NCBI GenBank assembly: GCA_019058445.1
Contig: JAHPZA010000009.1
Span: forward strand, 1 to 64,000
DNA: 64,000 nucleotides
Origin: Promethearchaeota archaeon
GTDB lineage: Archaea > Asgardarchaeota > Lokiarchaeia > Sigyniarchaeales > SOKP01
Direction of reading: 5' to 3'
Under the pieces are notes generated by a model that saw only the letters and a list, made by a program, of their open reading frames with translations, was not told the DNA's origin and searched no databases. Each line of letters opens with the position of its first letter. The first letter of the stretch is position 1. Shown here in pieces: positions 2,676-50,659 of the stretch. A program made the position numbers and the translations under genes.

Positions 2676-5570
2676 ATGTCAGAAGATTCGAAAAAGAAGC
2701 AGGAATACATAGAGTTAATAATTTTTCTATTAATTTTACTTGGTACGTATTTAACGAGTTTTTATAGTTATCTTCTTTTTCATACCATCGCAGAATTATT
2801 TAGTATTATTGTCGCGGGAGGAATTTTTGTAATTTGTTGGAACTCTCGAAAAAATATCGATAATTCTTTCTTTTTAGTAGTTGGGATCTCGTTTTTGTTT
2901 ATTAGTGTGATTGACTTAATCCATACTTTATCTTATACTGGACTGAATATTTTTGTTGGTTATGATTCCAATCTCCCATCTTCATTATGGATTGCTGCAC
3001 GTTATCTGCAGGCTTTTTCTTATTTATATGGTACATTAATGATTAAAAAAAAACTAAAAACGTCCTATTTACTTGTAGGTTATACCTTGATCACAATTTT
3101 ATTGTTATTTAGCATTTTTACGGGAATATTTCCTATTTGTTACATCGAAGGATCGGGTTTAACACCTTTTAAGATTATAAGTGAATATGTAATTAATTTG
3201 ATCTTAATTAGTACTATCCTTCTAATGTACAACTTTCGAAATGAGTTTAATAAGAAAATATTAACCTTAATAATTGCCTCGATTTTAGCGACCGTAATTT
3301 CGGAATTAGCATTCACTTTTTATGTTAATGTTTATGGCTTGTCAAACTTAATCGGTCATATTTTTAAAATTATAGCTTTCTACTTTCTATATAAGGCTAT
3401 AATCGAAATTGGTTTAGAAAATCCCTATAATCTACTTTTTAGGAAATTGAAAAAATCTGAAGAAAGATATTTTAAATTATTTGAATCTTCACCTGTGGGG
3501 ATTGGTATTGCAGATATTAATGGTAAAGTAAGGGCCATCAACAAAAAAATGCGTGAAATAACTGGTTATACTTTAGAAGAATTTAAAACTATAAATCTAG
3601 CATCTACTTATGAAGATCCACAATTAAGAGAAGAATTTTTAATTCAGTTGGTCAAAACAGGTAAAATAAATAATTTTGAAGCAAAATTTAAAAAAAAAAA
3701 TGGTCAGCGATATTATGCTCTGTTAAATGCAGAATTGATTAATATTGAAGATGAAAAATTAATTATAACTAATGTTCAAGATATAACTGATAAAAAGCAA
3801 TTCGAGTTAGCGTTAGCTGAGAGCGAAGAAAAATTCCGAACAATTGCTGAGCAATCTTCTTTAGGAATAGTAATTCTACAAGATGGAATTTTTAAATATT
3901 CAAATAAAGGATTATCTGATATTACAGGATATTCCAAGGATGAGATTAGAAAATGGTCTCAAAATGAATTTACTAAGAAAATACATCCCGATGACCTGCC
4001 TACTGTTATTGAGAATTATCAGAAAAAAATTAGAGGAGAGATGAGTTTATCGTCGAGTTACACATGTAGAATCATAACAAAATCAGAAAAAATTAAGTGG
4101 ATTGAGATAAGATCAATAGCGATCCAATATCTTGGAAGGCTAGCCGATCTTGCCACATTTATAGATATAACCGAACAAAAAGAAGCTGAAAGAAGAATAC
4201 AAGAGGCTGAATTACGTTATCGAACCACCTTTGAGCAATCTCCCGATGGAATTATGATATTAGATCCTCAAACAAAGAGAGCGATCGAGTTTAACAATTC
4301 TATGTGTAGGCTATTAGGTTATTCACACGAAGAGTTTGCAAAACTCCAAATCAATGATTATGATGTGCAGGAAAAGCCTGAAGAGACGAAAACACATATA
4401 CAGATTATTCTAAGAGATGGAAGAGATGATTTTGAGACTAAATTTCAGACTAAGAGCGGAGAGATTAAGGATGTGTCATTAATCTGTAAAACGATTGAAT
4501 TATCAGAAAAGATATATTTTCAGGTAATTTGCCGTGATATTACCGAAAAAAAGAAAGCAGAAGAGAAGATTGCAAATTTAGCTAAATTTCCTTCTGAGAA
4601 TCCTTTACCAGTCTTAAGGGTAAATAATAAGAGTATAATTTACAGCAACCAAGTTGGAGAATTAATTTTTGATATTACTAAAGGGAGCCCACTTCCTCTT
4701 AACTTAAAAGATGATATTATAGATGTAATAACGAATAGAAAACTAAAAACAATAGAAAGAGAAATCAATAAAAAATTTTATTCCTTTGTGATAACTCCAG
4801 TTGAAGGAGTAGATTATGTGAATATTTACGGTATGGATATTACAGATCGTAAACAGGCTGAGCAAAGATTAGAACGCTTAGTTTCTACAGTATCACACGA
4901 ATTAAGAACGCCTATTACCGTTATATTAATGTCTTTAGATTATTTAAAAAACCATCAAGACAACATAACTCCAGAGTTGGAAGCTCGATTAATGGATGGA
5001 GTTTCCAGAAACACTTCATTACTTCACAAATTAGCCGAAGATATTCTTATGGTCTCAAGAATTGATGATCATCGATTAGAGCTTGAATTGGCAGAGTATA
5101 GCCCATTAGAAATAATAAATGAGGTCTTAACTCTCTTGGAACAGAAAGGTAAAGAAAAAAGTATTAATTTTGATATTAATATAGATGAGAATATTCAATT
5201 GTTAGGTGATCCAAAACGTATTGACCAAATTTTTCGTATACTCATTGATAATGCGATAAAATATTCGGTTTTAGATTCCAAGATTGAAATTAGTGCGATT
5301 AACAATTACATAGGAAAATATAGTTGCAATGGAAAAAAAGGAGTACTTTTTCAGTTCAAAGATAATGGAATGGGGATCCCCGAAAAAGATATTCCTCATT
5401 TATTTGAAAGATTCTTTAGGTCTGAACACGTAAAAGAAATTAGCGGAACGGGTTTGGGACTATCAATTGCTAGAGAATTGGCACACCTTCATGATGGTGA
5501 GATATTTGTCGAGAGTGAGTTTGAAAAAGGATCAACTTTTTATGTGTTTCTTCCTAAAATTGAAGGATAA
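2676..5570 (+). CDS. Sensor histidine kinase: MASE3-type membrane domain, 3-4 PAS domains, HisKA, HATPase
   Basis: YLLFHTIAELFSI MASE3 start; repeated DIT..K.AE PAS ends; SHELRTP H-box; NAIKY, DNGMGI, GTGLGL. Confidence 0.95.
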   Translation: MSEDSKKKQEYIELIIFLLILLGTYLTSFYSYLLFHTIAELFSIIVAGGIFVICWNSRKNIDNSFFLVVGISFLFISVIDLIHTLSYTGLNIFVGYDSNLPSSLWIAARYLQAFSYLYGTLMIKKKLKTSYLLVGYTLITILLLFSIFTGIFPICYIEGSGLTPFKIISEYVINLILISTILLMYNFRNEFNKKILTLIIASILATVISELAFTFYVNVYGLSNLIGHIFKIIAFYFLYKAIIEIGLENPYNLLFRKLKKSEERYFKLFESSPVGIGIADINGKVRAINKKMREITGYTLEEFKTINLASTYEDPQLREEFLIQLVKTGKINNFEAKFKKKNGQRYYALLNAELINIEDEKLIITNVQDITDKKQFELALAESEEKFRTIAEQSSLGIVILQDGIFKYSNKGLSDITGYSKDEIRKWSQNEFTKKIHPDDLPTVIENYQKKIRGEMSLSSSYTCRIITKSEKIKWIEIRSIAIQYLGRLADLATFIDITEQKEAERRIQEAELRYRTTFEQSPDGIMILDPQTKRAIEFNNSMCRLLGYSHEEFAKLQINDYDVQEKPEETKTHIQIILRDGRDDFETKFQTKSGEIKDVSLICKTIELSEKIYFQVICRDITEKKKAEEKIANLAKFPSENPLPVLRVNNKSIIYSNQVGELIFDITKGSPLPLNLKDDIIDVITNRKLKTIEREINKKFYSFVITPVEGVDYVNIYGMDITDRKQAEQRLERLVSTVSHELRTPITVILMSLDYLKNHQDNITPELEARLMDGVSRNTSLLHKLAEDILMVSRIDDHRLELELAEYSPLEIINEVLTLLEQKGKEKSINFDINIDENIQLLGDPKRIDQIFRILIDNAIKYSVLDSKIEISAINNYIGKYSCNGKKGVLFQFKDNGMGIPEKDIPHLFERFFRSEHVKEISGTGLGLSIARELAHLHDGEIFVESEFEKGSTFYVFLPKIEG

Positions 5571-5641
5571 TTTTAAAAAAAATTATAAAAATCCTTAGAA
5601 CAATTATTAATTAATATAAAGAGAAATGCGAAAAATTTAGC

Positions 5642-6529
5642 TTGAAGCCACTTATTCTTGTTGTAGAAGATAATGCGGACATTTTGTTTAGTATTAAGTT
5701 AATTTTAGAAGCCAATGGTTTTCAAGTAACTACGGCAGATAATGGAGAGAAGGCTCTAAAAGTCCTAAACGAACTTAAAACAATTCCAGAAGTCATCATC
5801 AGCGATATTTTGATGCCAAAAATGAATGGGTATGATTTTTTTAAGGCTATTTTTGAAGATATCCGTTGGAATAGAATACCTTTCATATTTCTTACAGCTC
5901 GCTCATCACCAGAAGAAATTCGATTTGGCAAAATGTTGGGTGTTGATGATTACATTACTAAACCTTTTAATGAAGAAGATTTAATTGCAGCTGTAGCTGG
6001 CAAAATAGCACGAAATAAAAAAATTAAATCAATTAATCAGAAAGTTGAAGAGATGCTTTTATCATTAAAAATAGAAAGTAAGGCATCAATTTCTGAGAAA
6101 GAAAAAAGCCTGGTTCATCTGTTGATTGTTGTGTGGGATGACAGATTAGGTCCTGAACTAAAAGATTATTATCCAAAACAAGATTATCTGCCAATCCCGA
6201 TTAAAGATATAGGAACCCAACTATTTCAAGCTACAGTTTCGATTTATGGAAATGAAGATATAACTGAGTCAGAAGGACTCTTGTTAAATATCGAAAATAT
6301 CAAAAAATATGGATATATTCTTTTCGATGCTTTTCAAGATAAAACCTCAAGAGGAGGAGAAAGACAATTTATGATTGCAGTTATTGCTCCCAAAATAAAT
6401 TATATTGAATCATTTGAAATTAAAAAAGTATTTAAAACTATTTCACTTAAATTAAAGAAGAATGAAAAATGGGATATTGAAGCAAGTTGGGAGGAAATTT
6501 TAGAGATATTATCGACGCCTACTCTTTAA
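5642..6529 (+). CDS. Response regulator receiver fused to a uDENN/longin-like domain
   Basis: VVEDN, ISDILMPKMNG, FLTA, YITKPF; C-terminal LLIVVWDDRLGP...D..SRGGERQFMI. Confidence 0.9.
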   Translation: MKPLILVVEDNADILFSIKLILEANGFQVTTADNGEKALKVLNELKTIPEVIISDILMPKMNGYDFFKAIFEDIRWNRIPFIFLTARSSPEEIRFGKMLGVDDYITKPFNEEDLIAAVAGKIARNKKIKSINQKVEEMLLSLKIESKASISEKEKSLVHLLIVVWDDRLGPELKDYYPKQDYLPIPIKDIGTQLFQATVSIYGNEDITESEGLLLNIENIKKYGYILFDAFQDKTSRGGERQFMIAVIAPKINYIESFEIKKVFKTISLKLKKNEKWDIEASWEEILEILSTPTL

Positions 6530-6605: not shown

Positions 6606-6755
6606 AGTGGCTTATGGTTTTTTAATCTTTAATATTATACTAGCTAATAGAGCTTTGTATTGAATTAATTCTTTCTTAGATGGAATTATTTCTAGAATAT
6701 TTATTTTAATTTTTTGAACTATTTTGATCAATTTTAATTAAATACTTCTTAATCT

Positions 6756-6770
6756 TGAAACTTTATAATA
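6756..6770 (+). promoter_or_regulatory. BRE/TATA-like promoter of the GH38 gene
   Basis: TGAAACTTTATAATA about 100 nt upstream of ATG 6872. Confidence 0.5.
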
Positions 6771-6871
6771 AGACGAAAGATTAAAAAATATTGAGAATGA
6801 GAATATATAATTTTATAAGTTCAGTTATTAATTAATCTGTATTAGAAATTAAATTATAAGGATGAAAATAT

Positions 6872-9697
6872 ATGGTAAAGGCAAATAAGATTATATTAGT
6901 GCCTGAAACACATTGGGACCGTGAAACTTTATAATATTGAGATGTAAAGCACGAATGGTATCTTACCTTTAACGAGTTTCGGGCCTACCTTGTAATAATG
7001 ATGGATAAATTGTTAGAAATTCTTAAAAAAGACCCCAGTTTTAATAATTTCACACTTGATGGACAAGTCATACCATTAGAAGACTATCTGGAAGTAAGAC
7101 CTAAAGAGAGAGAAATTATTGAAAAATTTGTTAAAGAAGATCGGCTTTCGATTGGTCCTATGTATGTATTACCAGATGAGTTCTTAGTTAGTGGAGAATC
7201 ACTTATTCGTAATTTATTGCTTGGCCACATAATTGGCAGGAGATTTGGGAAAGTTATGAAAGCAGGATATATCCCAGATCCTTTTGGACACATCGCACAA
7301 CTACCCCAAATATTGCAGGGATGTGAGATTCCATCCATGTTATTTATGAGAGGTTTTGGTAATGAATTCGAGGAAAACAACTTAAACATGGAGTTTATAT
7401 GGAACGCACCTGGAAATAGCGCATCAATTTTGACTATCCATTTACTTTACGGATATTCCTCTGCGGCAAATCTTAATACTATAATTACTGATGGCAAATA
7501 TCAATCAGCACTGAAAAAACTTAAAAAAGCAGTAAAAAAATTAGAAAAGTATACCGCAACAGATATTGTCTTATTAAATAATGGTTCGGATCATTTATTT
7601 GCACAACCTGAAGTTCCGGAAATAGTAAAGCAATGGAATGAAGCCTATCCTGATAGTCTCATGGAGATAAATGATTTTGAACATTATGTAAATTTGGTTT
7701 CCTCAGCGAATCCTAAATTAAAAAGTTTTAAAGGAGAACTCAGAGGGGGAAAATATCATCCGCTCTTATCGGGAGTTTTTTCTGCAAGAATGTGGATAAA
7801 GCAAAAGAATACAGAAATCGAATATTTGTATGAGAAATATGCAGAACCCCTATCTACTATTACTTGGGTGCTAGATAAGTATAATAAATTCAGTTACCCA
7901 AACGCATTTCTCTGGACAGGGTTGAAGTGGCTACTTAAAAATCATCCTCATGACTCGATATGCGGATGTAGTATCGATGAGGTTCATGAAGAAATGAAAA
8001 CAAGGTTTCAGTGGGCTGAACAAATTGCAAATGAAATTACAAAGAATTCTTCCATATATCTATCTGATTTAATTAAATTTCAGACAGAAAATGATGAAAA
8101 AATCCCGATAATAATTTACAATCCAATGCCGTGGAAGAGGAAAGATATTTCATATTTTGAAGTTAGTGTTCTTGCAAATAAAGATCCTAATGAAATTCAG
8201 AGTGAATTGTCAATTATCGATTATGAGGGTAAAAATATAGACTATCAGATTTTTAAGATAAAAGAGAAACCAAGGCTTTGGATTGAGCCAAATGCTTCAT
8301 ATCGAATTACATTTATAGCCAATGTTCCAGCATGTGGATATAAAGTGTATTATGTATTGTATAATAAACTTGATGAGACGCTTAAACCTCAAAAAAAACT
8401 TGATCTAAGCAAAAAGAGTATTGAAAACGAATATTATAAAGTGACCGTTAAAAATAATGGTCAAATTGACTTATTAGATAAAAAAAGCGAGATTTTATAT
8501 GAAAATATATTACAATTTGAAGATGTAGGAGATTGGGGTGATGAATACGACTATTCAGGTCCTAAAAAGGGGGCGATGGACAAAAAATATACTTTACAAG
8601 ATGCAACTAACCTCAAAACAAGCTTAAAAATAGACGGGCCCTCTCAAAAAACATTGAAGTTTAGTATGATACTAAACTTACCAAACTCATTAGCGAAGGA
8701 TAGAATGAAACGAGAAGAACTATTAACCCCAAATAAAATAAGCGTCTATATCACTGTATATAAAGAAATTAATCGTTTAGATTTTAAAATAAAGGTTGAT
8801 AACCAAAGCAAAGATCATAGAATTAGGGCTATCTTTTCATCTAAAGTAAGGAGTGAAAAGGTATATGCAGATGGTCATTTTTATGTGATTCCAAGAAATA
8901 TAGAATTACCTAAGAGTCGCGGATGGGCTCAAAAAGCACTCCCTACGAACCATCAAAAGGATTTTGTATGCGCTCAGGATGATGCTAATTGTTTTGCTAT
9001 ATTCAATAAAGGATTGCCGGAGTATGAGGCTATTAAAAATAATAATGACACAATTAAGCTGGCGGTTACCTTATTAAGATGTGTTGAATGGCTTTCACGT
9101 GGAGATCTTGCAACAAGGACGGGTATGAGAAGTGCAATAGCCGGACCTCCTCTACATACCCCTAAAGCACAATGTCTTGGAAAATATGAGTTTGATTTAT
9201 CATTATGTATAAAAAATCATAAAAAAGATTTCTTAGATGCTGGAATTCCCAAAATTGGGAAAGAATTTAATAATCCTCTCTTGACAATCATACCAGGTAG
9301 TCTTAAGATTATTATAAGACAAAATGATAAATTGCTTTTATCTCCTTCTTCTATTTTTCAGATATTTACAAATATAACTCCGAAAGAATTTGAACCATAT
9401 TTACCTGAAAGTATGAGCTTTTTGGAGATCGATAATAAAAATATTATCTTAAGCGCTTTAAAGAAAGCAGAGAAAGGAAATTCTTTAATAATCCGTATTT
9501 ATAATTTAGCTACGACATCTCAAAAAGTAAAATTACAATTTTTTAAGAATTTTGCCTTGAAACAAGCTGAATTTGTTAATTTATTAGAGGAGAAACCAAA
9601 AAGTGTAATAAAAGCGAAGATAACTGAGATTAATAAGAACTTTGTCAAAATTGAAATAGAAGCTCATGTAATTGCTACAATTAAAATAGAATTATGA
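6872..9697 (+). CDS. GH38 alpha-mannosidase (mannosylglycerate hydrolase-like); predicted exons 6872-6925 and 6956-9697, 931 aa spliced
   Basis: Spliced N-terminus MVKANKIILVPETHWDRE|WYLTFNEFRAYLV; FTLDGQ, GESLIRN, GYIPDPFGH, NGSDH, HPHDSICGCS. The ORF-track start at 6998 lacks the HWD metal ligands. Confidence 0.92.
6926..6955 (+). other. Candidate 30-nt bulge-helix-bulge mRNA intron
   Basis: In-frame TAA and TGA; 4-bp helix CGUG/CACG, 3-nt bulges AAA and AAU, 7-bp intron stem; removal restores HWDREWY. Confidence 0.82.
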
Positions 9698-19032: not shown

Positions 19033-20685
19033 ATGTCAGATCAAAAAGTATATTATAGATTTTGGCCAGATGGCGTGCCGAAAGAAATTGATATTCCAGA
19101 CACAACTCTCGTAGCTTTTCTAGAGGATAGCGTCAAAAAGTATCCGGATAATGTGGTTACTTATTTTATGGGGTTCGAATTGACGTACACCCAATTACTT
19201 GATATTGTGTACCGAGTAGCAACAAAATTGACAGAACTCGGACTTAAAAAAGGTGATTGCGTGGCGATCCATTTTACAAATAATCCTGCGTTTGTATGCT
19301 ACTATTATGGTATTTTAAAAATGGGGTGTATAGTAACTTGTATCTCTCCATTATTTAAGAGTCTTGAAATAAAACGACAATTAAATGACAGTGAAGCTAA
19401 GGTATATATTGGCTGGGAGGGTTTTAGCGGGATGGTAGATCCAGTTATTGAAGAGACTGGAGTACAACAAAAATTTTATAGTAATCTTTCGCCCTTTCTA
19501 TCTCCTGATCCCATGGCCCCCCCTGAGTATCCTATGGGTGGCGAGCCTACTTTCGAAGATATTATACGAGAAACTAAACCAAATCCTCCTGATGTTACTA
19601 TAACTGGAGATGATCTTGCTATGCTTCAATATACTGGAGGTACGACGGGATTCCCTAAAGGAGCCATGCTCACTCATGGAAGTATTACTTCAAATGTATT
19701 TCAAGCAGAATCGTGGTTCGTGGATAAAGAACCCGGAAAAGAAGTTCTTCTTGCGGCGTTACCTTTTTACCATATCTATATGGGATTTATGATGAATATG
19801 ACCATCCATTCTGGCTGGAAACTTGCATGTGTATTTAATCCCCGTGAAGCTCATGAAGTAATTGAAGTGATTGAGGCAACTAAGGTGACAGTATTTCCTG
19901 GGGTTGCAGCACTATATAACAATCTCAATAACTATGAAGTTATAGAAAAGCATGATTTATCTAGTATAAAATATTGTTTAAGTTCTGCTGGACCCCTTCC
20001 AGACGAGATTAGAAGAACTTTTGAGAAATTGACTGGGGCTAAACTCCGAGAGGCATATGGTTTAACAGAGATGTCTCCTGCGGTTACCGCAAATCCCTTT
20101 GAAGGTAAATTTAAAACAGGATCAATCGGGATGCCCTTTCCCAACACAGAGGTAAAAATTGTAGATTCGCAAGGAAAAACACGTGGAATCAATGAAATAG
20201 GGGAGCTGGTTTGTAGAGGTCCACAAATGATGAAAGGGTACTATAAAAGAGAAGAAGAAACGAATAATACTATGAAAAAACTTGATGATGGGAAAATGTG
20301 GTTATTTACTGGAGATATGGCACTGATGGATGAAGATGGCTATTTCGTAATTAAGGATAGATTAAAGAATTTAATAAAATACAAGGGGCATTCAGTATAC
20401 CCTACGGAAGTCGAAGATTTATTGTATAATCACGAAGCTATTGAAGAGTGTGGCGTTATAGGAATTATTGATGAAGAAGGAAAGGAGAATATTAAAGCGT
20501 TCGTGGTTCTCAAGGAAGAGTTCAAGGAGAAGGGAATAACTGAGCAGGAAATAATTGATTGGGCTCGAGAAAATATGGCTTTTGATAAATATCCCCGATT
20601 TGTAGAATTTATTGATGAAATACCTAAGACAATTGTGGGTAAAGTCCTCCATCGGGAATTAAGAGATTTGGAAGACCAAAAATAA
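19033..20685 (+). CDS. Long-chain fatty acid-CoA ligase
   Basis: YTGGTTGFPKG, YGLTE, TGD, PKTIVGK. Confidence 0.93.
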   Translation: MSDQKVYYRFWPDGVPKEIDIPDTTLVAFLEDSVKKYPDNVVTYFMGFELTYTQLLDIVYRVATKLTELGLKKGDCVAIHFTNNPAFVCYYYGILKMGCIVTCISPLFKSLEIKRQLNDSEAKVYIGWEGFSGMVDPVIEETGVQQKFYSNLSPFLSPDPMAPPEYPMGGEPTFEDIIRETKPNPPDVTITGDDLAMLQYTGGTTGFPKGAMLTHGSITSNVFQAESWFVDKEPGKEVLLAALPFYHIYMGFMMNMTIHSGWKLACVFNPREAHEVIEVIEATKVTVFPGVAALYNNLNNYEVIEKHDLSSIKYCLSSAGPLPDEIRRTFEKLTGAKLREAYGLTEMSPAVTANPFEGKFKTGSIGMPFPNTEVKIVDSQGKTRGINEIGELVCRGPQMMKGYYKREEETNNTMKKLDDGKMWLFTGDMALMDEDGYFVIKDRLKNLIKYKGHSVYPTEVEDLLYNHEAIEECGVIGIIDEEGKENIKAFVVLKEEFKEKGITEQEIIDWARENMAFDKYPRFVEFIDEIPKTIVGKVLHRELRDLEDQK

Positions 20686-50371: not shown

Positions 50372-50659
50372 ATACTCAAATGCCTCATTAAATTTTTTAT
50401 ATACTTTTTTAACACAAATAATTCATGCGATAGTTATAAAAGGAGAGGGAAAACTATTAATTTTTTTTCATTAATTTAAATATAACATTTGTGAAAATCA
50501 TAGAATAACCAATTATAAATTAAGTATTTTTATTTTACTAAGTTTTGAATTACATGCAGATTTCTGCTTATGTAAGAACAAATCTTAATTTTATAAAAAC
50601 TAAATTTATTAGCCCGCATATTCTGACTTTAATTAATTAACTAATTTTTTTAGAAGAGT

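What the first reader, a model, noticed from the sequence alone, without database searches (positions are those of the whole stretch)
6872..6997. Candidate bulge-helix-bulge intron in a protein-coding gene (GH38 mannosidase) of an Asgard archaeon
Seen: from ATG 6872 the frame reads MVKANKIILVPETHWDRE, then 30 nt (6926-6955, ACTTTATAATATTGAGATGTAAAGCACGAA) with in-frame TAA and TGA, then WYLTFNEFRAYLVI into the annotated ORF. The RNA can form a 4-bp central helix CGUG(6920-23)/CACG(6950-53), 3-nt bulges AAA(6924-26) and AAU(6954-56), and a 7-bp intron stem CUUUAUA/UGUAAAG with a 9-nt loop. The exon-side stem is weak (C6919-G6957, then a mismatch), so the motif is relaxed. Known: the archaeal splicing endonuclease EndA cuts after the second base of each bulge and RtcB ligates. 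That rule gives cuts after 6925 and 6955 and yields CGT GAA|TGG TAT, exactly the conserved GH38 HWDREWY motif that carries the His/Asp metal ligands. The established archaeal mRNA intron example is crenarchaeal cbf5. Inference: tRNA-type splicing is needed to express this metabolic enzyme, and short BHB mRNA introns may be hidden in Asgard genomes as truncated ORFs. This has a loose parallel in eukaryotic HAC1/XBP1 splicing, which also uses tRNA ligases.
Basis: partly seen in the sequence, partly recalled or inferred. Interest (0 to 1): 0.97.

Follow-up and report, generated by a model that had tools for sequence, protein, structure and literature searches.

The report
tRNA-type mini-intron splitting an Asgard mannosidase gene
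A 30-base insert that breaks the metal-binding motif of an alpha-mannosidase gene in an Asgard archaeon has the RNA shape that the tRNA-splicing enzyme cuts. [quoted passage not shown]

Summary
ATG 6872 opens 18 codons ending in HWDRE. The next 30 nt (6926-6955) carry TAA and TGA. The frame then resumes at WYLTF and runs 913 codons to the stop at 9697. Intronless orthologs read HWDREWY without a break.

The same-site insert (30 nt, once 29 nt) occurs in 16 of 101 species genomes of the class that have the ortholog, and in more than 24 distinct sequence versions. Across these versions the bulge-helix-bulge (BHB) fold is 94% paired. Six pairs show compensatory changes, and many G-U pairs work only on the sense RNA. 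Every version has an in-frame stop or a frameshift, while exon 1 and the roughly 910-codon exon 2 remain under protein-level selection. Only the cut predicted by the BHB rule restores the conserved Glu.

The genome encodes EndA and RtcB. My own scan found about 15 more 29-31-nt inserts of the same architecture in other genes (EF-2, gyrB, Sir2, ChlD, thioredoxin and others), against 0-4 decoy hits.

No RNA data exist for this organism, so splicing itself is inferred. Earlier notes of this scan had already reported such introns in this genome and in others; in print I found only cbf5 and one Haloferax 5' UTR case. Verdict: a real feature and a new member of a known kind.

The parts
6872..6925 (+). 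Exon 1: start codon plus 17 codons (MVKANKIILVPETHWDRE). It carries the His-x-Asp metal-ligand motif of glycoside hydrolase family 38 (GH38).
   Evidence: Translation. It is colinear with the N-termini of intronless orthologs. It supplies Pfam PF01074 profile positions 1-13, which exon 2 lacks. Variation among intron-bearing alleles falls mainly on third codon positions: 2426 differences against 246 at position 2 and 690 at position 1.
6926..6955 (+). 30-nt bulge-helix-bulge (BHB) intron with in-frame TAA and TGA.
   Evidence: Same site and length in more than 24 distinct orthologous versions. Absent from 5 congeners. Present in DNA contigs of two samples.
6920..6923 (+). Central helix H, exon strand (CGUG). 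It pairs with 6950-6953 (CACG).
   Evidence: In alignment A1 the four pairs are 99% paired and vary only on the intron side, by G-C to G-U and U-A to U-G. The Arg codon is CGT in 16 of 16 alleles found by the protein search that carry the intron, but only 3 of 23 intronless alleles use CGT.
6924..6926 (+). 5' bulge AAA. Predicted cut after 6925.
   Evidence: Unpaired in the fold. The cut rule comes from PMC2738675. The resulting junction restores HWDRE|WY.
6927..6949 (+). Inner hairpin h': stem 6927-6933 / 6943-6949 with loop 6934-6942.
   Evidence: In A1, 6 of the 9 stem pairs show compensatory double changes, 91.6% of cells are paired, 0 of 500 shuffles reach the observed values, and slid controls reach 19-51%.
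6950..6953 (+). Central helix H, intron strand (CACG).
   Evidence: Variants are CACG, CAUG, CGCG and once CUCG.
6954..6956 (+). 3' bulge AAU. Predicted cut after 6955. The closing pair is C6919-G6957.
   Evidence: Orthologs have AUU or AGU here, which fixes the junction. The outer helix beyond the C-G pair is irregular, so the motif is relaxed.
6956..9697 (+). Exon 2: the remaining 913 codons of the GH38 alpha-mannosidase, plus the stop codon.
   Evidence: The Pfam GH38 N-terminal, middle, C-terminal and C2 domains all score over their cut-offs. It is 84% identical to intronless P0003 over its full length.

Best explanation
The 30 nt at 6926-6955 are an archaeal tRNA-type (bulge-helix-bulge, BHB) intron inside the coding sequence of a GH38 alpha-mannosidase gene of a Lokiarchaeial (Promethearchaeota, Asgard) archaeon.

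Proposed mechanism. In the pre-mRNA, exon bases CGUG pair with intron bases CACG to form the 4-bp central helix. A 3-nt bulge lies on each strand, and a 7-9-bp hairpin fills the intron. The splicing endonuclease EndA cuts after the second base of each bulge, that is after 6925 and after 6955. RtcB then joins the exons to give ...CGU GAA|UGG UAU..., and probably circularises the 30-mer. Only the spliced mRNA encodes the full enzyme with its H-x-D metal ligands.

Status of each step.
- Shown: the insert, its exact colinearity with orthologs, its conservation with covariation, selection on both exons, and the presence of EndA and RtcB genes.
- Inferred: cleavage, ligation and the requirement of splicing for activity.

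The intron is one of a population of about 30-nt BHB introns in this genome. Among relatives it is present or absent in a patchy way that implies repeated loss and/or transfer by recombination.
For: 1. Exact interruption. Intronless orthologs read THWDREWY(L/M)TF, and removing 6926-6955 gives the same. The Pfam GH38_N match starts at profile position 1 in intronless P0003 but at position 14 in exon 2 alone. P0003 aligns to solved GH38 structures across this motif.

2. Recurrence.
- All six N-truncated orthologs (56-78% identical) carry a 30-nt insert at the identical site.
- A protein-based search of 161 species genomes of the class finds it in 16 of 101 genomes with the ortholog, in four genera.
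- Pattern scans add more versions, giving 24 distinct inserts in alignment A1: 23 of 30 nt and one of 29 nt.

3. RNA structure.
- 94.3% of cells are paired and 6 pairs show compensatory changes. None of 500 shuffles reaches the observed values, and slid controls give 19-51%.
- About 28 G-U cells would be A-C mismatches on the other strand.
- One allele (L027/L049) has a different hairpin sequence but keeps the length, helix H and the bulges.

4. Not a dead gene.
- Every insert has an in-frame stop, and the 29-nt one also shifts the frame.
- Every exon 2 that is fully covered stays open for 907-920 codons.
- Exon 1 keeps a start codon and varies mainly at third codon positions.

5. Exon constraint. 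GAC CGT GAA is invariant in 16 of 16 intron alleles found without a DNA pattern. Only 1 of 23 intronless alleles has it.

6. Junction. Only the BHB-rule cut gives Glu. Sliding the cut by 1-2 nt gives Asp in all alleles ending in GAT.

7. Machinery. The EndA catalytic subunit lies at C9:770346-770843 and RtcB at C1:114713-116020. Asgard EndA is reported to be the broad-specificity (alpha-beta)2 type with the L1 loop (PMC5829648).

8. Same architecture elsewhere in the genome.
- Strict scan, insert length 26-33 nt: 10 hits against 1 and 0 decoy hits.
- Relaxed scan: 11 hits against 1 and 3 at length 30, and 6 against 0 and 1 at length 31.
- Pfam shows the Sir2 and EF-2 GTPase domains cut into consecutive profile parts, and the ChlI domain match ending at the exon 1 junction.
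Against: - No transcript, circular intron or peptide data exist for this organism, so splicing itself is not observed.
- The fold energy of the window's sequence is no better than that of shuffles (z = -0.28).
- The outer helix is a single C-G pair plus irregular pairs, so the motif is relaxed rather than canonical hBHBh'.
- Only one EndA subunit was detected with the Pfam models. The enzyme's architecture in this genome is therefore taken from the literature and was not tested here.
- The AT-rich 5' arm resembles a BRE/TATA promoter element and repeats a 15-mer found 166 nt upstream.
- Exon columns of the alleles found by the DNA pattern are invariant by construction. I therefore rest the exon-constraint argument only on the alleles found by protein search.
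Confidence: 0.85

Rival explanations
1. Programmed translational bypassing. The ribosome takes off at GAA 6923-25 and lands at GAA 6953-55, skipping 30 nt as in T4 gene 60, so no RNA splicing is needed.
For: In the window the codon before the gap and the last codon of the insert are both GAA. A stop codon lies two codons after the take-off codon, and there is a hairpin in the gap.
Against: All 23 other aligned variants, and all 14 further alleles from the protein-based search, end the insert in GAT or GAG. No matching landing codon therefore exists in them. The conserved features are a 4-bp exon-intron helix and two 3-nt bulges, which bypassing does not require. The same architecture recurs in about 15 unrelated genes with unrelated flanking codons.
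Confidence: 0.02
2. Non-functional insertion. The gene is a pseudogene or yields only an N-truncated, inactive protein from ATG 6998, and the hairpin is a relic or a small DNA-level palindromic element.
For: Gene callers annotate only the truncated ORF (P0002). The fold energy is unremarkable. The presence/absence pattern is patchy.
Against: The insert persists in 16 species-level genomes of four genera, with full-length open exon 2 in those alleles where it was checked. Exon 1 keeps its start codon and shows third-position-biased variation. Length is held at 30 nt. The G-U pairs are strand-specific. Exon codons forming helix H are fixed only in intron-bearing alleles.
Confidence: 0.04
3. Internal promoter. 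The insert's 5' arm (GAAAC-TTTATA...) acts as a BRE/TATA element that drives a transcript for the downstream ORF.
For: The junction repeats a 15-mer found at 6756-6770 upstream of the gene. These are the only two copies of it in the 4.6-Mb genome. Many alleles have TTTATA at this place.
Against: No other intron-bearing locus repeats its junction upstream. The variants in L027/L049, L054, L055 and L043 lack a good TATA but keep the BHB. A promoter does not explain the covarying 3' arm, helix H, the fixed length or the selection on exon 1. The product would lack two metal ligands.
Confidence: 0.03
4. The RNA element is excised, but by enzymes other than EndA and RtcB, or it is a regulatory hairpin whose removal is conditional.
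For: The outer helix is weak, so the motif is not canonical. No enzyme assay is available.
Against: The 4-bp helix with two 3-nt bulges, and the position of the junction, match the EndA rule exactly. Both enzymes are encoded in the genome. Relaxed motifs are reported substrates of the Asgard/TACK-type EndA (PMC5829648).
Confidence: 0.05

Closest known systems
BHB intron in the cbf5 (pseudouridine synthase) pre-mRNA of Crenarchaeota (Watanabe 2002; Yokobori 2009, PMC2738675)
   Same: Both are short introns inside a coding sequence, at a catalytic motif, flanked by a mostly relaxed BHB motif. The predicted cuts lie between the 2nd and 3rd bulge bases. Both hosts have a hetero-oligomeric type of EndA. 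Distribution among related species is patchy, implying gains and losses.
   Different: The gene differs (a metabolic GH38 glycosidase rather than an RNA-modification enzyme) and so does the phylum (Asgard rather than Crenarchaeota). The length here is fixed at 30 nt. This intron is one of about 15 or more same-architecture introns in one genome, whereas cbf5 is a single case per genome. Splicing of cbf5 has been shown by cDNA and enzyme assays; here it has not.
BHB introns of archaeal pre-tRNA and pre-rRNA
   Same: The motif is the same (4-bp helix, two 3-nt bulges, flanking helices), and so is the presumed machinery of EndA plus RtcB, with a circular excised intron expected.
   Different: The host RNA is an mRNA, so the exon side of helix H is made of codons (Arg CGU plus the G of Glu). 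This constrains synonymous sites. No tRNA body is present to help recognition.
46-nt BHB intron in the 5' UTR of Haloferax volcanii HVO_1309 (PMC7714728)
   Same: It is an mRNA substrate of the archaeal splicing endonuclease.
   Different: That intron lies in the untranslated leader and does not interrupt a reading frame. It is confirmed in vivo and in vitro.
Unconventional cytoplasmic splicing of HAC1/XBP1 mRNA in eukaryotes
   Same: It is non-spliceosomal removal of a short intron from an mRNA, followed by tRNA-ligase joining (RtcB in metazoa), and it changes the protein made.
   Different: The endonuclease is Ire1, which recognises stem-loops rather than a BHB. The event is stress-regulated. 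There is no evidence here for regulation.

Membership tests
Archaeal bulge-helix-bulge (tRNA-type) intron | A 4-bp central helix flanked by two 3-nt bulges on opposite strands | tested here: met
   CGUG 6920-23 pairs with CACG 6950-53, with bulges 6924-26 and 6954-56. The helix is 99% paired across 24 variants, with only wobble-compatible changes plus one U-U mismatch.
Archaeal bulge-helix-bulge (tRNA-type) intron | Flanking helices h' (intron side) and h (exon side) | tested here: inconclusive
   h' is met: 7-9 bp, with 6 pairs showing compensatory changes. h is only C6919-G6957 plus irregular invariant pairs suggested by RNAalifold. The motif is therefore relaxed (HBh'-like) rather than strict hBHBh'.
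Archaeal bulge-helix-bulge (tRNA-type) intron | Cuts between the 2nd and 3rd bulge bases give a functional joined RNA | tested here: met
   In silico only. The rule (PMC2738675) gives CGU GAA|UGG, which reads HWDREW as in all intronless orthologs. Other registers give Asp.
Archaeal bulge-helix-bulge (tRNA-type) intron | Cleavage by EndA and ligation by RtcB, with spliced RNA and a circular intron observed | not testable with these tools
Archaeal bulge-helix-bulge (tRNA-type) intron | The host encodes the splicing endonuclease and the RtcB ligase | tested here: met
   PF01974 and PF02778 match one 203-codon frame at C9:770346-770843. PF01139 matches at C1:114713-116020 with E = 2.6e-172. A beta subunit was not found with these models. 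The (alpha-beta)2 type with the L1 loop is taken from PMC5829648.
Glycoside hydrolase family 38 alpha-mannosidase | GH38 N-terminal, middle and C-terminal domains | tested here: met
   PF01074, PF09261, PF07748 and PF17677 all score over their cut-offs on exon 2. The N-terminus of the ortholog aligns to 3LVT and 2WYH.
Glycoside hydrolase family 38 alpha-mannosidase | N-terminal H-x-D metal-ligand motif contiguous with the rest of the domain | tested here: met
   Met only after removal of 6926-6955. Exon 1 ends in HWDRE, exon 2 starts at profile position 14 and the annotated ORF at position 30, whereas the intronless ortholog covers positions 1-251.
Programmed translational bypassing (T4 gene 60 type) | Matching take-off and landing codons flanking the skipped segment | tested here: not met
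   The pair is GAA/GAA in the window only. It is GAA against GAT or GAG in all other variants.

The most novel reading that the evidence does not exclude
The GH38 intron is one member of a length-standardised class of 29-31-nt BHB introns that populates a dozen or more ordinary protein-coding genes of this Lokiarchaeial genome, including EF-2, gyrB, Sir2, ChlD, thioredoxin and a P-loop GTPase. These introns typically sit inside the most conserved motifs. They come and go between close relatives by recombination that carries flanking exon sequence with it. If so, mRNA splicing by the tRNA-splicing machinery is a routine and evolutionarily dynamic step of gene expression in these close prokaryotic relatives of eukaryotes, not a one-gene curiosity.
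Probability: 0.6. Interest if true: 0.88.

Novelty: new member of a known kind. Interest (0 to 1): 0.78.

Why it matters
In the papers I could search, splicing of an archaeal coding sequence by the tRNA endonuclease is documented for one gene family only: cbf5 in Crenarchaeota (PMC2738675). PMC7714728 states in 2020 that cbf5 is still the only other reported example. A 2026 preprint on Asgard tRNA introns (10.64898/2026.10.13.758758) does not mention mRNA introns.

This report describes a well-supported second kind of host gene, an ordinary metabolic enzyme in Asgard archaea. The comparative evidence includes covariation, strand-specific wobble pairs, constrained synonymous sites and 16 species.

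Practical consequences:
- Gene callers truncate such genes. Here two of the metal ligands of the enzyme are lost from the annotation, so metabolic reconstructions of Asgard MAGs will miss or misjudge these genes.
- The fixed 30-nt size, the placement in conserved motifs and the rapid gain/loss pattern make testable questions of how BHB introns spread and whether they are selfish, neutral or regulatory.
- The junction is simple to test by RT-PCR in enrichment cultures or metatranscriptomes.

Tried and rejected
RNA evidence:
- Two look-ups of public runs listed no RNA holder for this DNA. No expression statement is possible.

Energy and known families:
- The fold energy of the single sequence is not better than shuffles, so I did not use energy as evidence.
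- Rfam has no match in 6700-7100.

Genome-wide scan:
- Versions that used a lenient ORF filter, or a codon-usage filter alone, gave as many decoy hits as real hits. I abandoned them.
- Only a requirement for at least 2 G-C pairs in helix H plus a near-complete hairpin separated signal from decoys.
- Two further scan hits inside the window (near 50621 and 59847) look like chance.

Sequence family:
- The GH38-type intron sequence does not recur elsewhere in the genome (the pattern was flawed). The introns of different genes are therefore alike in shape but not in sequence.

15-mer repeat upstream of the gene:
- It is real but unique to this locus. No other intron-bearing locus has one, so I rejected it as a general feature.

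tRNA genes:
- ARAGORN in intron mode finds only 23 tRNA genes, 19 with putative introns, some of them dubious. This is too unreliable to compare tRNA and mRNA introns.

EF-2:
- I did not argue that the interrupted EF-2 is the sole copy, because a 36%-identical paralog and a partial duplicate exist.

Rejected readings:
- Translational bypassing, stop-codon read-through, internal promoter, pseudogene and assembly artefact were considered and rejected for the reasons given under the rival explanations.
Full report
**What is in the sequence**

From ATG 6872 the + strand reads MVKANKIILVPETHWDRE, ending at 6925. The next 30 nt (6926-6955) contain TAA at 6932 and TGA at 6938 in that frame. From 6956 the same frame reads WYLTFNEFRAYLVIMMDKLL and stays open for 913 codons, to the stop at 9695-9697. 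The mechanical ORF list starts the gene only at ATG 6998.

Exon 2 has all four GH38 Pfam domains, but its N-domain match begins at profile position 14. The annotated ORF begins at position 30, and the intronless ortholog P0003 covers positions 1-251. P0003 aligns to solved bacterial GH38 structures straight across SHWDREWYL. From established knowledge of GH38, the His and Asp of the H-x-D motif are two of the metal ligands, so a protein started at 6998 would lack them.

Neighbouring genes are a MASE3-PAS histidine kinase, a response regulator, two small ORFs without a family on the minus strand, and an enolase-superfamily (MR_MLE) gene. No homing-endonuclease gene lies next to the gene in the window.

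**The fold**

- CGUG 6920-23 pairs with CACG 6950-53.
- AAA 6924-26 is bulged.
- A 7-bp stem (6927-33 / 6943-49) closes a 9-nt loop.

The layout is helix strand, bulge, inner hairpin, helix strand, bulge. From my knowledge of intron-containing archaeal pre-tRNA, this is the layout of the bulge-helix-bulge motif. The energy is no better than that of shuffled sequence (z = -0.28), so the single sequence carries no statistical weight. No Rfam family matches.

**Relatives**

Of the 120 best protein clusters, 112 begin like MKANKIIIVPETHWDREWYL. Six others begin at MMDKLL or, in one case, at MKHDWY, which is read from inside the insert. One cluster is a partial sequence and one is the window's own ORF.

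I fetched the DNA of all six truncated clusters. Each has a 30-nt insert at exactly the same place.

A protein-based search that reads through stops covered 161 species-representative genomes of the class. It found the ortholog (E <= 1e-40) in 101 of them. Sixteen of these carry the extra 30 nt with stops. All sixteen are in one family, in four genera:
- 1 of 6 genomes in the window's own genus
- 6 of 43 in a second genus
- 8 of 27 in a third
- 1 of 3 in a fourth

Five congeners of the window's genome have the uninterrupted gene. Pattern scans of genome and metagenome collections added more alleles. Alignment A1 holds 24 distinct versions, 23 of 30 nt and one of 29 nt. Record titles name Promethearchaeota, Hodarchaeota and Hermodarchaeota MAGs.

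**Structure conservation**

On A1 the bulge-helix-bulge structure is 94.3% paired, and six pairs show changes on both sides. None of 500 column shuffles reaches any of the five measures. Sliding the 3' partners by 1-3 columns drops pairing to 19-51%.

The central helix varies only on its intron strand, and almost only by wobble-compatible changes (CACG, CAUG, CGCG; one CUCG). About 28 cells are G-U pairs, which exist only on the sense RNA. A DNA palindrome therefore does not explain the pattern.

One allele (L027/L049) has an unrelated hairpin sequence but keeps the same length, the same helix H and the same bulges. Another (L083) turns an A-U pair into G-C.

RNAalifold prefers an exon-exon pairing for the outer part. 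Those columns are invariant and cannot be tested. The outer helix is weak, and the motif is best called relaxed.

**The exons are alive**

- Every insert has at least one in-frame stop, and the 29-nt version also shifts the frame.
- Every exon 2 that the fetched DNA covers completely is open for 907-920 codons.
- Exon 1 keeps a start codon in each allele.
- Among 29 alleles, exon 1 differs at third codon positions 2426 times, against 246 at second and 690 at first positions. This is the signature of translation under purifying selection.

An 18-residue peptide carrying half of a metal site makes sense only if it is joined to exon 2.

**The exon side of the motif is constrained**

The 23 intronless alleles use CAT/CAC, GAT/GAC, six different Arg codons, and GAA/GAG. 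Only one of them has GAC CGT GAA. All 16 intron-bearing alleles found by protein search have GAC CGT GAA; only the His codon varies, 12 CAT and 4 CAC. CGU plus the G of GAA is the exon strand of helix H, and the C of GAC closes the 3' bulge.

The alleles found through my DNA pattern are invariant here by construction, and I do not count them. The one intronless allele with these codons (L023) may be a recent precise loss.

**The junction**

PMC2738675 places the cbf5 cuts between the second and third bulge residues. Applied here, the cuts fall after 6925 and after 6955 and give CGU GAA|UGG, which reads R-E-W.

In the window GAA precedes both junctions, so the cut is ambiguous by 3 nt. This also raised the idea of ribosome hopping between matched codons. 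In every other allele the insert ends in GAT or GAG. There is then no matched landing codon, and any other register gives Asp instead of the invariant Glu. This removes bypassing as an explanation and confirms the register.

**Machinery**

The genome (4.6 Mb, 10 contigs, 31% G+C) encodes the EndA catalytic subunit at C9:770346-770843 and RtcB at C1:114713-116020. I did not find a beta subunit with the Pfam models. PMC5829648 reports that Asgard archaea have the (alpha-beta)2 EndA with the L1 loop, the type that accepts relaxed motifs.

**Genome context**

After my own analysis I consulted the scan's earlier notes. They had flagged about 30-nt BHB inserts in other genes of this same genome and in other archaea. 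I tested this with my own scan: a 4-bp helix, 3-nt bulges, a hairpin filling the insert, and an excision that rejoins an interrupted frame. I compared it with two decoy geometries, one mirrored and one slid.

Lenient filters gave no excess over decoys. Results after requiring at least two G-C pairs in helix H:

| Scan version | Insert length | Real geometry | Mirror decoy | Slid decoy |
|---|---|---|---|---|
| Strict | 26-33 nt | 10 | 1 | 0 |
| Relaxed | 30 nt | 11 | 1 | 3 |
| Relaxed | 31 nt | 6 | 0 | 1 |

The hits cut textbook motifs:
- EF-2 switch region
- GyrB LEGV|RKRPAMYIG
- Sir2 ELHG
- ChlI/ChlD MNPEEGELRPQ
- thioredoxin WCGPC
- a GxGxxG fold
- a P-loop GTPase
- a BKACE enzyme

Pfam confirms that Sir2 (profile 58-103, then 108-180) and the EF-2 GTPase domain (2-33, then 48-187) are single domains cut in two. 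The ChlI domain match ends at the last residue of exon 1.

The inserts of different genes share shape and length but not sequence. The GH38 intron is thus one of roughly 15 or more in this genome. This in turn makes it likely that the organism splices such RNAs.

**Evolutionary pattern**

On a tree of 135 GH38 sequences, the 23 intron-bearing rows need 16 changes of state, at least 14 of them forced by well-supported branches. The shuffled mean is 21.6. Near-identical genes differ in having the intron.

L067 (intron) and L072 (no intron) are identical over most of the 3' 1100 nt compared. They diverge progressively towards the intron site and are unalignable upstream of the gene. The window's exon 1 resembles that of the intron-bearing L001 more than that of its closest whole-gene relative P0003.

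I read this as exchange of the 5' gene segment by recombination, carrying the intron in or out. This is an inference from few pairs, and the direction (gain or loss) is not resolved.

**DNA check**

Logan contigs of the probable source sample (25.7x) and of a second sample of the same study span the insert without any difference. Together with the many independent assemblies of relatives, this excludes an assembly artefact.

**Comparison with what is known, and novelty**

The closest known case is the cbf5 pre-mRNA intron of Crenarchaeota. PMC7714728 (2020) adds a 46-nt BHB intron in a Haloferax 5' UTR and states that cbf5 is the only other mRNA example. PMC2738675 notes that introns in other protein genes had been predicted but not confirmed. 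My searches found no paper describing BHB introns in Asgard protein-coding genes.

The feature meets the defining features of the motif, apart from a weak outer helix. Cleavage and ligation could not be tested. I file it as a new member of a known kind. The genome-wide, length-standardised and evolutionarily mobile population is the more novel reading.

The scan had already reported such introns on other DNA and in this genome. I tested several of those notes here.

Noticed in passing
window 6756-6770 and 6922-6936: The 15-mer TGAAACTTTATAATA, which looks like a BRE/TATA element, occurs exactly twice in the 4.6-Mb genome. One copy lies 102-116 nt upstream of the ATG and the other spans the exon 1/intron junction. 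No other intron-bearing locus repeats its junction upstream.
   Followed up: yes
G000 contigs outside the window: C10:684151(-), C9:608337(-), C9:775898(-), C9:269078(-), C6:1128447(-), C4:159308(+), C6:1272331(+), C6:752439(+), C3:396665(+), C10:5852(+), C2:158371(-), C9:219412(+), C6:188701(-): Inserts of 29-31 nt with the same BHB architecture interrupt other genes: EF-2, gyrB, Sir2, ChlD, thioredoxin, a GxGxxG enzyme, a P-loop GTPase, an Fe-S protein, a BKACE enzyme and others. They mostly sit inside conserved motifs. Their sequences are unrelated to one another.
   Followed up: partly
L067 versus L072 (orthologs from other samples): Two GH38 genes are nearly identical over their 3' 1100 nt or so but diverge towards the 5' end and differ in having the intron. 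This looks like a recombination breakpoint a few hundred nt downstream of the intron site.
   Followed up: partly
L023 (G020:C22, about 20221-20580): This is the only intronless allele among the 23 with the intron-type exon codons CAT TGG GAC CGT GAA directly followed by TGG. It may be a recent precise intron loss.
   Followed up: no
L001:1-484 (-): About 900 nt upstream of the intron-bearing GH38 exon 1 in L001 lies a gene whose product has a faint LAGLIDADG_3 (homing-endonuclease-like) Pfam hit. Nothing similar lies next to the gene in the window.
   Followed up: no
G000, whole genome: ARAGORN with introns allowed finds only 23 tRNA genes, 19 of them with putative introns, and none in the window. 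This suggests that most tRNA genes are interrupted in ways the program cannot model, in line with a 2026 preprint on Asgard tRNA genes.
   Followed up: partly
G000:C10:652107-652778 (-) and C9:663790-665787 (+): There is a 97%-identical partial duplicate of the EF-2 C-terminal third, and a 36%-identical full-length EF-2 paralog.
   Followed up: no
window 2676-6529 (+): A MASE3-PAS-HisKA-HATPase sensor kinase and a response regulator lie directly upstream of the mannosidase gene on the same strand.
   Followed up: partly
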